DNA from: Gammaproteobacteria bacterium
GTDB lineage: Bacteria; Pseudomonadota; Gammaproteobacteria; JAJFKG01
Assembly (NCBI GenBank): GCA_021156325.1
Contig: JAJNDI010000003.1
Location: 1,686-65,685 of the forward strand
Direction of reading: 5' to 3'
Length of the DNA: 64,000 nt
Shown: positions 42,001-45,000 of the stretch, one piece after another
Position numbering within the stretch: position 1 is the stretch's first letter
Layout: every line of letters begins with the position of its first letter
Position numbers: made by a program

Positions 42001-45000
42001 GGCGGCGTATGCACCGCCGTACCGCTGATTAAAATACGCTCATTCATTGTTGATTCTACCTGGCCTCGGGACAAGCAAGTGGCATCATACCACAGAGATA
42101 ATACTTCCCCTAGAGGTAGACACCATTGTCTACCCCAATATACCTTTCGCCTTTCAAGCTGTGACTTTGTTGTCCGCTTGTCTCGCTGTTCATGTATTCA
42201 ATTTAGGAACGAAGCTGCTCGCCTTCACGGACGCCTCGCCACAGCTTGAAATGCTTTGAGTATAGACAGTGAGGGTGAAATGGTTAATTCACTTTCAGAA
42301 ACGCTTTATTTTTTTCTATATAAGCATCACTGATCCCGCGCACATTGGCTAATTCTTCAACTTTTTTGAATGTGCCGTGTTCTTCGCGATAGCTAATAAT
42401 AGCTTTTGCCCGACTCGTACCGATACCGGGTAAAGCCGCTAAGGTCTCTGCATCCGCTTCATTAATATTCACAGGATAATGCGCTGTACTTTGAACTTCT
42501 GCTGATTGCTCAGTTGAAGTGGATCCACTGGTTTTTGCCGTTTTGGCATGCGTTATGACTCCATAGCTCGCGATGCAAAACGCAAGTACCCCTATCGCCT
42601 GGTATTTTACGATTGCCCTTAACTTCATGGTTTTCTCCTTTATAACTGAATGCAAAGGCGCATTCATTAGGAGATTATTAAAACCTAAAAGCAACCCAAA
42701 AATCAAGTAATTTGATGAAAATGTAAGAAATTCAGGAATTAGGCAGCTTTAAGAATATCCGTTTTAATAGCCTCAATAAGGGTTTTAGGATGAAGAGCGT
42801 TTGTAATGGGGCGCCCTACCACGAGATAGTCTGCGCCATTGGCAATAGCTTCTCTAGGGGTCAACACCCGTTTTTGATCATCCAGATTAGGGGTTAAGCG
42901 AATACCCGGACACACTAAACAAAAGTTTTCACCATTTGCCTCCCGCAATAAACTCGCTTCCTGGGCGGAGCAAACAACGCCATCCAGATTAGCTGCTTGT
43001 GCCATTTTGGCTAAACGTAATACGTTATCTTCCACACTGCCAAGCAAACCCATTTGCTGCAAAGTACTTTGGGTATGGCTTGTTAAGACAGTAACTCCTA
43101 TTAACAAGGGTTTTTTGCCTGTGATTTTGTCTAAAGCTTCGCACGCAGCCAATAACATCTCACTGCCACCTAAACAATGTAGATTTACCATCCATACACC
43201 CAATTCAGCAGCCCGTAATACACTGGCTGCGACTGTATTAGGAATATCGTGATATTTTAAATCAAGAAATATTTCAAATCCCTTTTTTTGTAGTGTTTTT
43301 ATGAAATGAGGGCCTGCTTGTGTAAATAATTCATGGCCTATTTTGAGACGGCATTCCAACGGGCTGCAATGCGTTAGAAATGCTAATGCAGCTTTTTCAT
43401 CGGGATAATCCAAAGCAATAATTAATCGCGGTTCATCAGGTAAATGCTGCATAAAGGCTCCTAATCTCCCTCTAATCCATGAATAGGCTTAATCGTTGAC
43501 CAGCGCCGGCAGCCGGGGCAAAGCCAATGCAGACTTTTGGCGGCAAAACCACAGTGGCCGCAACGATAAACAGGCTTATTTTCGAGAAGTTTTGCAGTCA
43601 AATATTCCAGGATTTCCAGATTTCCCCGTGCATCATTATCGGCATTATGAATATGCAATTGAATCAAGCGGTGCAAACCACGAATAGAGGGATATTGTCT
43701 TAACTGTTCAACGATAAAATCAGCCGCTCGGCGCTCACCCTGCGCTGTTGCAATGCGATCGGCTAACAGTAATATGATCGAGATCCGCGGATAAGTAGCC
43801 AAACATTCATAAAGATAACGCATAAATTCATCTTTCATATCAAGGGCAGCGTGGCAGCGTTCGAGCGGCAGCAATACTTCCATTAAGAGATCGGGATCTT
43901 GCTCGATAGCTTCTTTAAAATAACGTATTGCTGGTTTATACCGTTCGCTCTGTTCTTCCAATTGGCCTAGCAACATACTGGCACGGGCAGACGCTTTATC
44001 AATAGACAATGCTTTACGTAAGCAGCGATACGCTTCATTCACATGCCCGCCTTCGCCTTTCAAGCTGATACTTTGTTGTCCGTTTGCCTCGTTGCTCATG
44101 TATTCATTTATACACTGAGCTACTCGGCTACGCGGACGCCTCATCTCAGCTTGAAATGCTTTGGCGTTATTGATGTGCTCTTGCGCCAACTCACAATAAT
44201 AATGCGCTATTTGCATCGACATTAATTCGCCTGTTGCCGATTCCAAACGCTCGGCTGTTTCAACTGCTTCTTTCCAGCTTTTTTCTTGTTGATAAATATC
44301 CAGGAGAAAACGTAAGCTGGATACAATGTGTTCGCCTGATTCTACTACTTCTTGAAAAATACGTTCAGCTCTGTCAAACACCCCTGCTGCAAAATAATCT
44401 TGTCCTAATTCCAGTAATGATTGGGCGTGCATTTCCCGGCTTAAGTTAGGCCGTGCAATCAGGTTTTGATGAATACGTATCGCACGTTCAACTTCACCCC
44501 GGCGCCGAAACAACGAACCTAATGCTAAATGAGTTTCAACCGTATCACTATCAACTTCCAGCATTTTGACAAAGACATCAACCGCTTTATCAGGTTGTTC
44601 GTTTAATAAAAAATTTAATCCAACGAAATAATCACGCGGAAAACGGGACAAAGAAGAAATTTCCCGACGCTTTTGTTCAGCAACACGGGAAGCACACCAG
44701 CCTGAAAAAGCGGCAATAGGCAATAATAATAAAGCGATATCCGTTGCAATCACTAGCGATCTTCCTTTAGCGGTATCGAACGAATGTTATTGATTTCTTT
44801 TTCGGCGAGCTTGATACGTTTATTTAAGCGGCGATTCTTACAGCGTGCCCGCCAATAAAGAACAAAACCCATAAAAAAACCAATCAATATGCCGATAGCA
44901 AAGCTAAACACTAAGAGTAAAGACAAGGGCACAGAAGCAGTCCCCACATAGTAATGAATGTCAACTGGCGCTGCATTAAGGCAGGCAAAGGTAGCGCCGA

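What the first reader, a model, noticed from the sequence alone, without database searches (positions are those of the whole stretch)
44051..44165. MITE-like element inserted in-frame inside the essential LPS-assembly gene lapB
An element of about 112 bp lies entirely inside the lapB ORF. It carries the terminal inverted repeats CCTTTCAAGCTG...CAGCTTGAAATG and is homologous to an intergenic copy at 42143-42258. The lapB ORF reads through it with no stop. The encoded protein is 430 aa, about 41 aa longer than E. coli LapB (389 aa, recalled from memory), and the extra segment (...AKAFQAEMRRPRSRVAQCINEYMSNEANGQQSISLKGEGGHV...) maps to the repeat, between TPR motifs. This is either an expressed in-frame MITE insertion tolerated by an essential regulator of LpxC turnover, or an intein/intron-like removable element. 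Such ORF-embedded MITEs (QMITEs) have been described in Coxiella, but the consequence for LapB function is not obvious.
Basis: partly seen in the sequence, partly recalled or inferred. Interest (0 to 1): 0.7.

Follow-up and report, generated by a model that had tools for sequence, protein, structure and literature searches.

The report
Palindromic mobile repeat translated inside LapB
A ~120-bp hairpin-forming mobile repeat sits in frame inside the lipopolysaccharide-regulator gene lapB of an uncultured Legionellales-like bacterium, adding a 39-residue loop; the same repeat is also read in frame inside MutL, YhdP, RecN and other proteins, so it is a new counterpart of the "protein-coding palindromes" known from Rickettsia.

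Summary
Window 44047-44169 is one copy of a ~121-bp repeat that is palindromic along its whole length. Two more copies lie at 42140-42263 (83% identical, blastn E 2e-28) and 51646-51768.

The copy lies inside lapB (43461-44753, minus strand, 430 aa). It is read through in frame and adds 39 residues. None of the 119 other listed LapB relatives (384-397 aa) has them. The insert sits in the A-B loop of TPR5, not between TPR motifs. The modelled fold is otherwise intact (TM 0.93 to 4ZLH).

New here: the same element, in the same frame and orientation, is embedded in MutL and YhdP of very probably the same MAG. It also occurs in RecN, a hybrid histidine kinase and an ABC-auxiliary lipoprotein of other uncultured bacteria.

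Canonical copies read TA|TACCC...GGGTA|TA and span 123 nt, or 41 codons. Only two of six frames lack stops. Compensatory changes keep the hairpin (20 of 41 pairs).

The host is not Coxiella burnetii and the element is not a QMITE. Intein and intron readings fail.

Best reading: a translated, now immobile MITE, a gammaproteobacterial analogue of Rickettsia palindromic elements. It is a new member of a known kind, of moderate interest.

The parts
43461..44753 (-). lapB (yciM) ORF, 430 aa: N-terminal TM helix, nine TPRs, C-terminal rubredoxin-type zinc ribbon
   Evidence: ORF list. NCBIfam LapB equivalog, 474 bits. PDB LapB hits at E 4e-88. AF2 model pLDDT 90.5. TM 0.93 to 4ZLH_A. Identical to NCBI MCD6055250.1.
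44047..44169 (+). Copy of the palindromic repeat inside lapB. The element's + orientation is antisense to lapB. Termini are degenerate: the canonical TA|TACCC...GGGTA|TA is missing.
   Evidence: Hairpin MFE -52.7/-53.5 kcal/mol, z -8.7/-9.4.
44049..44165 (-). The 39 extra codons (LapB residues 197-235, AKAFQAEMRRPRSRVAQCINEYMSNEANGQQSISLKGEG). The junctions are uncertain by 1-2 codons.
   Evidence: Alignment with 10 orthologues. Codon table. Model: helix A lengthened to residue 204, extra helix 208-222, loop 223-233, with pLDDT 71-86.
44055..44067 (+). Left inverted repeat GCCTTTCAAGCTG
44147..44159 (+). Right inverted repeat CAGCTTGAAATGC
42140..42263 (+). Intergenic copy (124 nt, TA-flanked) between the comEA-like and fabH-like genes. 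A stop and a 1-nt indel break the frame that lapB uses.
51646..51768 (+). Diverged third copy in the gyrA / ubiG-like divergent spacer. Its arms carry compensatory changes.

Best explanation
This is a non-autonomous, whole-length palindromic mobile repeat: a MITE of the protein-coding-palindrome type. It landed in lapB and is now a fixed, translated part of the protein.

Shown:
- The family has dispersed copies in this genome and in other uncultured bacteria, among them a Legionellales MAG and the closest LapB relative.
- Canonical copies read TA|TACCCTTCG...CTTTGGGTA|TA. Counting one TA, they span 123 nt, or 41 codons, so an insertion cannot shift the host frame.
- Only two of the six frame/orientation combinations lack stops. 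One encodes a hydrophilic peptide, (I/V)P(K/T)AFQ.ETRR...AAECI..YMSSEASSQQS.SLKGEGY. That frame is the one found in LapB and in five other unrelated proteins.
- In LapB the element lies in the A-B loop of TPR5. The model keeps the LapB fold and shows the insert as an extension of helix A, then a short helix, then a loop.

Inferred:
- Mobilisation in trans by a transposase that duplicates TA.
- Translation of the insert.
- Near-neutral tolerance, because the site is a solvent-exposed loop.
- Later decay of the termini. The lapB copy lacks the canonical ends and gains only 39 codons, which would leave it an immobile fossil that only a precise deletion could remove.
- A side effect to expect: the lapB mRNA carries a hairpin of about -53 kcal/mol in mid-gene. 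This could slow ribosomes or attract RNase III.
For: Repeat and palindrome.

Lineage-specific insertion: the 10 closest orthologues (53-70% identity) lack it. The other 119 listed hits are 384-397 aa. In the closest relative the DNA gap is 117 nt.

Not an assembly error: a separate JGI assembly (L013, 99.988% identical over 17 kb) has the identical insert.

Same peptide inside other proteins: an exhaustive phmmer search of 1.84e9 representative proteins found it in YhdP, RecN, MutL, a hybrid histidine kinase and an ABC-auxiliary lipoprotein, at 61-78% identity. The DNA of these ORFs holds full element copies in the same orientation.

Same genome: LapB, MutL and YhdP carry neighbouring NCBI accessions of one MAG series, and their contigs come from one JGI metagenome.

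Lengths: ORF copies are 123, 123 and 120 nt. Intergenic copies are 122-124 nt and have stops or frameshifts in the sense frame.

Hairpin kept by covariation: 92% of cells paired, 20 of 41 pairs with double changes, 0 of 500 shuffles as good, and slid controls at 28-48% paired.

Peptides are hydrophilic, GRAVY -0.7 to -1.25.

Fold preserved: TM 0.93, rmsd 3.2 A to 4ZLH_A, with about 38 gap columns. All residues invariant across 64 LapB sequences are kept, including the four zinc-ribbon Cys.
Against: No transcript or protein data, so translation of the insert is inferred only from ORF integrity.

The lapB copy has neither the canonical termini nor a recognisable TA duplication. Its net gain is 39 codons, not 41, so the original event cannot be reconstructed.

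No autonomous IS with matching ends was seen, and the collections could not be searched further for one.

The ORF copies were found by a peptide search in one frame. The apparent frame and orientation exclusivity is therefore partly ascertainment, and the antisense frame was tested only with an insensitive tool.

Neutrality is not shown. The A-B loops of TPR2-4 are the LpxC-binding surface of E. coli LapB (PMC11046580), and TPR5's A-B loop is the next one along.

The model of the insert rests on a single sequence (pLDDT 71-86).
Confidence: 0.8

Rival explanations
1. Exapted element. The inserted segment, or the mRNA hairpin, has acquired a function. For example, it could change LapB's grip on LpxC, or place lapB, yhdP, mutL and other hosts under common post-transcriptional control through RNase III cleavage of the hairpin.
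For: The insert lies in the A-B loop of TPR5, next to the A-B loops of TPR2-4 that bind LpxC in E. coli.

ORF copies keep very stable hairpins, -49 to -58 kcal/mol on the mRNA strand.

The hosts include two envelope-lipid proteins (LapB, YhdP) and two DNA-repair proteins (MutL, RecN).
Against: The hairpin covariation is shared with intergenic copies, so it reflects the element's own biology and not the host genes.

The insertion sites in MutL (interdomain linker) and in the kinase (between REC and Hpt) look like merely permissive places.

The insertion is seen in one species-level lineage only. No functional data exist.
Confidence: 0.12
2. Removable element. The segment is taken out before or during protein synthesis, as an intein, a self-splicing intron or a translational bypass, so mature LapB lacks it.
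For: A strong structure inside an essential gene. Nothing else.
Against: At 39 aa it is far below mini-intein size. There is no Cys/Ser at the N junction and no His-Asn followed by Cys/Ser/Thr at the C junction (sequence).

About 120 nt is too short for group I or II introns, and there is no Rfam match at the gathering threshold or at E<=1.

The frame is open. Six independent ORF copies are stop-free with lengths in multiples of 3, while intergenic copies are not. Removal would not need this.

No stop codon follows a take-off codon, as bypassing requires.
Confidence: 0.03
3. Artefact or pseudogene. The repeat was mis-assembled into lapB, or this lapB is a decaying copy.
For: The source is a metagenome-assembled genome, and repeats are classic sites of mis-assembly.
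Against: Two assemblies agree base for base across the gene.

Both halves of lapB are collinear and in frame. Synteny gyrA-aroA-cmk-rpsA-lapA-lapB-pyrF matches the nearest relative.

All invariant LapB residues are intact.

The yhdP copy recurs in a third, unrelated read set (Logan SRR35179664).
Confidence: 0.03

Closest known systems
Rickettsia palindromic elements (RPE; Ogata et al. 2000 Science 290:347; 2002 Genome Res 12:808; summarised in PMC10969869 and PMC3184786)
   Same: A palindromic repeat of about 105-150 bp. It is inserted in frame in many unrelated housekeeping genes and encodes a conserved peptide. Insertions sit at positions compatible with the host fold. The hosts are bacteria with repeat-rich genomes, and the transposase is unknown.
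   Different: The host lineage is different: an uncultured Legionellales-like gammaproteobacterium, not an alphaproteobacterium. There is no sequence relation; no curated protein family matches the peptides. Here the ends are TA-flanked, and the span is 41 codons.
Coxiella burnetii QMITE1 / QMITE2 (PMC5896051)
   Same: MITEs of a Legionellales-order bacterium that form long hairpins. Some copies overlap ORFs.
   Different: QMITE1 is 300-400 bp. QMITE2 is 150-190 bp and has a GTAG REP. In functional genes they only overlap 3' ends, and mid-ORF copies are in hypothetical proteins. The conserved 21-mer core of the present family matched no Coxiella record in the genome scan, which covers one genome per species.
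Neisseria Correia elements (own knowledge; cited in the reference list of PMC5896051)
   Same: About 100-150 bp. Ends of the TATA(G/C)... type with a TA duplication. The transcribed hairpin is an RNase III substrate.
   Different: Correia elements are mostly intergenic and are not known as a systematic source of in-frame protein segments. There is no sequence similarity.
ERIC, RUP/BOX and BRE repeats fused to ORFs (Delihas 2011, PMC3184786)
   Same: Small repeats with open frames that are occasionally fused internally or terminally to coding sequences.
   Different: Those are sporadic, mostly terminal fusions. Here six full-length internal insertions use one frame.

Membership tests
MITE (generic) | Short (<~500 bp) with no transposase gene | tested here: met
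   120-124 nt. The frames give only a ~41-aa peptide.
MITE (generic) | Terminal inverted repeats | tested here: met
   The arms pair along the whole length. The consensus ends are TACCCTTCGCCTTTCAAGCTG / CAGCTTGAAATGCTTTGGGTA.
MITE (generic) | Several dispersed copies per genome | tested here: met
   3 copies in this 64-kb window, plus the mutL and yhdP copies of very probably the same genome. Further copies in 7 other loci from other samples.
MITE (generic) | Target-site duplication | tested here: inconclusive
   TA on both sides in the window's intergenic copy, L005, L006 and mutL. TA on one side and TG or CA on the other in yhdP, the kinase, recN, the lipoprotein and ruvX. None recognisable at lapB or at the gyrA-upstream copy. 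In L006, removing the element and one TA restores a perfect terminator hairpin.
MITE (generic) | A parent IS with the same ends | not testable with these tools
   No solo ends or transposase-flanking ends in the window.
Rickettsia palindromic elements (as a kind) | One palindromic repeat inserted in frame in several unrelated proteins, encoding a conserved peptide | tested here: met
   LapB, YhdP, MutL, RecN, a hybrid histidine kinase and an ABC-auxiliary lipoprotein.
Rickettsia palindromic elements (as a sequence family) | Homology to the RPE families; Rickettsia host | tested here: not met
   No significant NCBIfam or Pfam match for the peptides at E<=10; the best was E 0.06, far below its cut-off. 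That TIGRFAM RPE models are in NCBIfam is from my own knowledge. The host is a Legionellales-like gammaproteobacterium.
QMITE1 / QMITE2 of Coxiella burnetii | 300-400 bp (QMITE1), or 150-190 bp with a GTAG REP (QMITE2); C. burnetii genome | tested here: not met
   The element is 120-124 nt. The host LapB is about 50% identical to the C. burnetii protein. No direct sequence comparison with QMITEs was possible.
Intein | >=~130 aa; Cys/Ser at the first residue; His-Asn at the end, followed by Cys/Ser/Thr | tested here: not met
   39 aa. It starts AKAF and ends GEG, followed by GH.
Group I / II intron or other known structured RNA | Match to an Rfam model; adequate size | tested here: not met
   No Rfam match at the gathering threshold or at E<=1.
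LapB (YciM) | Equivalog HMM above its cut-off; TM helix, nine TPRs, four-Cys zinc ribbon | tested here: met
   474 bits against a cut-off of 363. 18 TPR helices plus the TM helix in the model. C398, C401, C412 and C415 are invariant. TM 0.93 to 4ZLH.

The most novel reading that the evidence does not exclude
The family may be adapted to live inside coding sequence. It would be a 41-codon module with stop-free frames that encodes a hydrophilic helix-turn segment, giving it a refuge in gene-dense genomes. On this reading its copy in LapB, on the row of loops that binds LpxC, measurably alters the control of LPS synthesis, and the shared hairpin links expression of its host genes.
Probability: 0.12. 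Interest if true: 0.75.

Novelty: new member of a known kind. Interest (0 to 1): 0.5.

Why it matters
Protein-coding palindromes were described as a peculiarity of Rickettsia. An unrelated family shows the same behaviour in a Legionellales-like gammaproteobacterium. It sits inside LapB (essential in E. coli), MutL, YhdP and RecN. This suggests the phenomenon arises repeatedly in repeat-rich bacterial genomes and is a general, if minor, source of new protein segments.

For LapB, it marks the TPR5 A-B loop as a site that tolerates 39 extra residues. That is useful for tagging or engineering. It is also a natural test of how close an appendage can sit to the LpxC-binding loops.

For annotation, such inserts explain over-long orthologues and should not be read as inteins or errors.

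Tried and rejected
1. Word-indexed protein searches with a six-frame concatenated peptide and with a sense-plus-antisense profile. They returned almost nothing and missed known positives, so their negatives carry no weight. The profile contained a few chimeric padded rows and served only as a probe.

2. Genome-collection scan for the conserved 21-mer. Only two true loci, both from one Legionellales MAG; the other nine were chance matches. The source genome is not in that collection.

3. Metagenome scan: one truncated copy.

4. Viral contigs, plasmids and phages: no copy.

5. Rfam: nothing.

6. Promoter and terminator scan across lapB: nothing in the element.

7. Nucleotide-level reconstruction of the empty lapB site from the nearest relative. 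At about 70% identity it is too diverged to place the junctions.

8. Sliding-window MFE scan of the window for other intragenic palindromes. The lapB element is the only repeat-type hairpin inside an ORF. Two other coding hits (59681-59800 and 61661-61790) have no match among the repeats found in the window.

9. Attempts to align the lapB termini to the canonical ends using small indels. Judged over-fitting and dropped.
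Full report
THE OBSERVATION

The ORF at 43461..44753 on the minus strand encodes 430 aa. It is LapB/YciM. It passes the NCBIfam equivalog NF008757 at 474 bits against a cut-off of 363. It matches E. coli LapB structures at E 4e-88. Those 389-aa chains align in two blocks, query 5-195 and 239-429 to chain 3-192 and 197-388, so about 40 query residues have no partner.

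The DNA under that gap is a repeat. blastn of 44040-44175 against the window finds 42146-42258 at 83.2% over 113 nt (E 2e-28). It also finds a third, more diverged copy at 51649-51728 (E 3e-7). A profile search gives full-length matches at all three sites and nothing else significant in 64 kb.

They are only the outer part of a palindrome that runs the whole length. The lapB copy folds to -52.7 kcal/mol on one strand and -53.5 on the other, with z about -9.

THE INSERTION IS LINEAGE-SPECIFIC AND IS NOT AN ARTEFACT

The 120 best LapB hits in 5.8 billion protein clusters comprise this protein itself and 119 relatives, all of 384-397 aa. In an alignment with the ten closest (53-70% identity), this protein has 39 extra residues, 197-235, where all the others have a gap.

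In the nearest relative, a 2.45-Mb genome, the neighbourhood gyrA-aroA-cmk-rpsA-lapA-lapB-pyrF is syntenic. Its lapB DNA is 117 nt shorter at exactly this place.

A separate JGI metagenome contig (L013) is 99.988% identical to the window over 17 kb. Its two differences lie elsewhere, and it has the same insert. The protein is identical to NCBI MCD6055250.1, from a MAG labelled Gammaproteobacteria bacterium.

The organism is not Coxiella burnetii; LapB is about 50% identical to the C. burnetii protein. Copies of the repeat occur in an uncultured Legionellales MAG, and the relative's locus carries ankyrin and Sel1 proteins. I therefore call the host Legionellales-like.

WHAT THE ELEMENT IS

I collected copies from several sources:
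- the window;
- the Legionellales MAG (L005, L006);
- a JGI contig (L012);
- the nearest relative (L014, a longer variant between pyrF and comEA);
- the loci described in the next section.

The consensus reads TA|TACCCTTCGCCTTTCAAGCTG...CAGCTTGAAATGCTTTGGGTA|TA. From TAC to GTATA, copies measure 120-124 nt.

The structure is a single long hairpin of 41 pairs. Across eight copies that are 61-89% identical, 92% of pair cells are standard pairs. Twenty pairs show changes on both sides. None of 500 shuffles reaches the observed values. Sliding the partners by 1-3 columns drops pairing to 28-48%. The palindrome itself, and not only the ends, is therefore maintained.

No Rfam family matches it. No curated protein family matches its peptides. 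It is absent from the viral, plasmid and phage collections.

TA flanks both ends in the intact intergenic copies and in mutL. The other ORF copies have TA on one side and TG or CA on the other. In L006, removing the element and one TA restores a perfect terminator, CCCGCATA-GCAA-TATGCGGG followed by a run of T. A TA duplication by a transposase acting in trans is the likeliest mode of mobilisation. This is inference: no parent IS was found, and I could not search further for one.

THE KEY NEW RESULT: THE SAME ELEMENT IS READ IN FRAME IN OTHER PROTEINS

I ran an exhaustive phmmer search of the 40-aa LapB insert against 1.84 billion representative proteins. It found five true hits in which the peptide lies in the middle of an unrelated protein:
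- YhdP (1346 aa, 78% identity);
- a RecN fragment;
- MutL;
- a hybrid PAS-HisKA-HATPase-REC-Hpt kinase;
- an ABC-auxiliary lipoprotein.

A sixth hit is a low-complexity false positive.

Wherever I fetched the DNA, a full element copy lies in the ORF, in the same orientation relative to the gene as in lapB.

MutL (MCD6055182.1), LapB (MCD6055250.1) and YhdP (MCD6055651.1) have neighbouring accessions of one MAG series. Their JGI contigs all come from metagenome 3300042904. Very probably, then, one genome carries at least three such insertions. The yhdP copy recurs unchanged in an unrelated read set.

The ORF copies measure 123, 123 and 120 nt. In each, only two of six frames are open. One is the sense frame, (I/V)P(K/T)AFQ.ETRR...YMSSEASSQQS.SLKGEGY. 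The other is a hydrophobic antisense frame.

The intergenic copies measure 122-124 nt and have stops or frameshifts in the sense frame. A canonical insertion adds 41 codons, so it never shifts the host frame. One landing in three, by frame and orientation, is read through. Selection then keeps those that land in permissive places:
- MutL: the interdomain linker region;
- the kinase: between REC and Hpt;
- YhdP: a break between Pfam profile positions 363 and 364;
- LapB: a TPR loop.

The peptides are hydrophilic, with GRAVY -0.7 to -1.25.

One caveat applies. These cases were found with a peptide in one frame, so the exclusivity of that frame is partly ascertainment. The only test of the antisense frame used a tool that missed known positives.

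LapB SPECIFICALLY

The AF2 model has mean pLDDT 90.5. It shows the TM helix, 18 TPR helices and the zinc ribbon. Counting helices places the insert between helices A and B of TPR5.

In the model, helix A (from residue 179) is lengthened to 204. A short helix follows at 208-222, then a loop at 223-233, and helix B starts at 234. pLDDT there is 71-86, and this part rests on the single sequence alone.

The model superposes on the E. coli cytoplasmic domain 4ZLH_A with TM 0.93 (normalised to the target) and rmsd 3.2 A. About 38 gap columns correspond to the insert. All residues invariant across 64 LapB sequences are present, including the four Cys and the His equivalent to E. coli H181.

So the gene looks functional, and the insert is an appendage. 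Neutrality is not shown, however. In E. coli, LpxC is bound by the A-B loops of TPR2-4 and by the rubredoxin domain (PMC11046580), and TPR5's A-B loop is the next in that row.

THE lapB COPY IS ATYPICAL AT ITS ENDS

Instead of TA|TACCC and GGGTA|TA, it has ...ATGCCCGCC|TTCG and CTTTGG|CGTTAT. The net gain is 39 codons, not 41. Its interior is among the best-paired of all copies.

I read this as later remodelling of the junctions. That would leave the copy unable to move, but the original event cannot be reconstructed without a closer empty-site relative. Copies within this genome differ by about 20%, so the family does not look recently active here.

ALTERNATIVES

Intein: 39 aa, wrong junction residues.

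Intron: about 120 nt, no Rfam match.

Translational bypass: no stop after a take-off codon, and the frame is open.

All three are also at odds with the ORF copies being kept stop-free and in multiples of three.

Mis-assembly or pseudogene: contradicted by the second assembly, the synteny and the intact conserved residues.

Exaptation, whether of the peptide near the LpxC-binding edge or of a shared RNase III-sensitive hairpin, cannot be excluded. It has no positive evidence beyond position.

COMPARISON WITH WHAT IS KNOWN

In-frame internal insertion of small repeats is documented, above all for the Rickettsia palindromic elements. These are 105-150 bp, and many copies sit in frame in unrelated genes at positions compatible with the fold (PMC10969869; PMC3184786).

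The present family behaves like an RPE. It is not one by sequence or by host.

It is not a QMITE either. Those are 150-400 bp elements of C. burnetii. In functional genes they overlap only 3' ends, and their mid-ORF copies are in hypothetical proteins (PMC5896051).

Full-text searches found no description of such elements in Legionellales.

VERDICT

The in-frame MITE reading is supported. The removable-element and QMITE parts are not.

It is a new member of a known kind, made more interesting by its recurrence in at least six proteins. Three of them are very probably in one genome, and the hosts include a gene that is essential in E. coli (PMC7730581).

Interest 0.5.

Noticed in passing
It lies in the divergent spacer between gyrA (49037..51622, -) and a ubiG-like methyltransferase (51898..52605, +). 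Its arms carry compensatory changes relative to the other copies.
   Followed up: yes
window 40780-40900 and 57790-57915: Clusters of GC-rich REP-like hairpins built on CCCTCTCCC / GGGAGAGGG. MFE reaches -85.5 kcal/mol per 120 nt. This is a second, unrelated repeat family, and it is intergenic.
   Followed up: partly
window 45070-45200: The lapA-rpsA spacer is filled with three or four short perfect hairpins (CCCCC..GGGGG, CGCCACGG..CCGTGGCG, GGGGGGATTTTAAGA..TCTTAAATCCCCCC). MFE is -65 kcal/mol.
   Followed up: no
window 5456-5552: Bacterial small SRP RNA (Rfam RF00169, 65 bits). This is the only Rfam hit in the window.
   Followed up: no
L005 2596-2832: A second member of the same family directly abuts the first. 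A different palindrome (cattgcgagcacgaagtgcgaagcaatcc...) occupies its interior, so the repeats are nested.
   Followed up: no
L006 2600-2765: The copy sits inside an intrinsic-terminator hairpin downstream of a radC-like gene. Removing the element and one TA restores CCCGCATA-GCAA-TATGCGGG followed by a run of T.
   Followed up: partly
L022 794-919 and 987-1026: The ABC-auxiliary lipoprotein gene carries one full in-frame copy. About 70 nt downstream it carries a partial second copy, read in a different frame (YTQSISSCDAARD).
   Followed up: partly
L023 1494-1618: A copy overlaps the called 5' end of ruvX, and the annotated start codon lies inside the element. Either the element supplies an N-terminal extension or the start is miscalled.
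   Followed up: no
alignment A7 (eight copies): G.U pairs are more frequent on the element's + strand (25 cells) than A.C mismatches (7 cells). This hints at a structure selected on the strand antisense to the coding frame. Most of the G.U cells come from three inherited positions, so the hint is weak.
   Followed up: partly
method (versus 45): The word-indexed protein search did not return P0001 or P0121-P0129 for short peptide queries, although those proteins are in that collection. Only the exhaustive representative search found them.
   Followed up: yes
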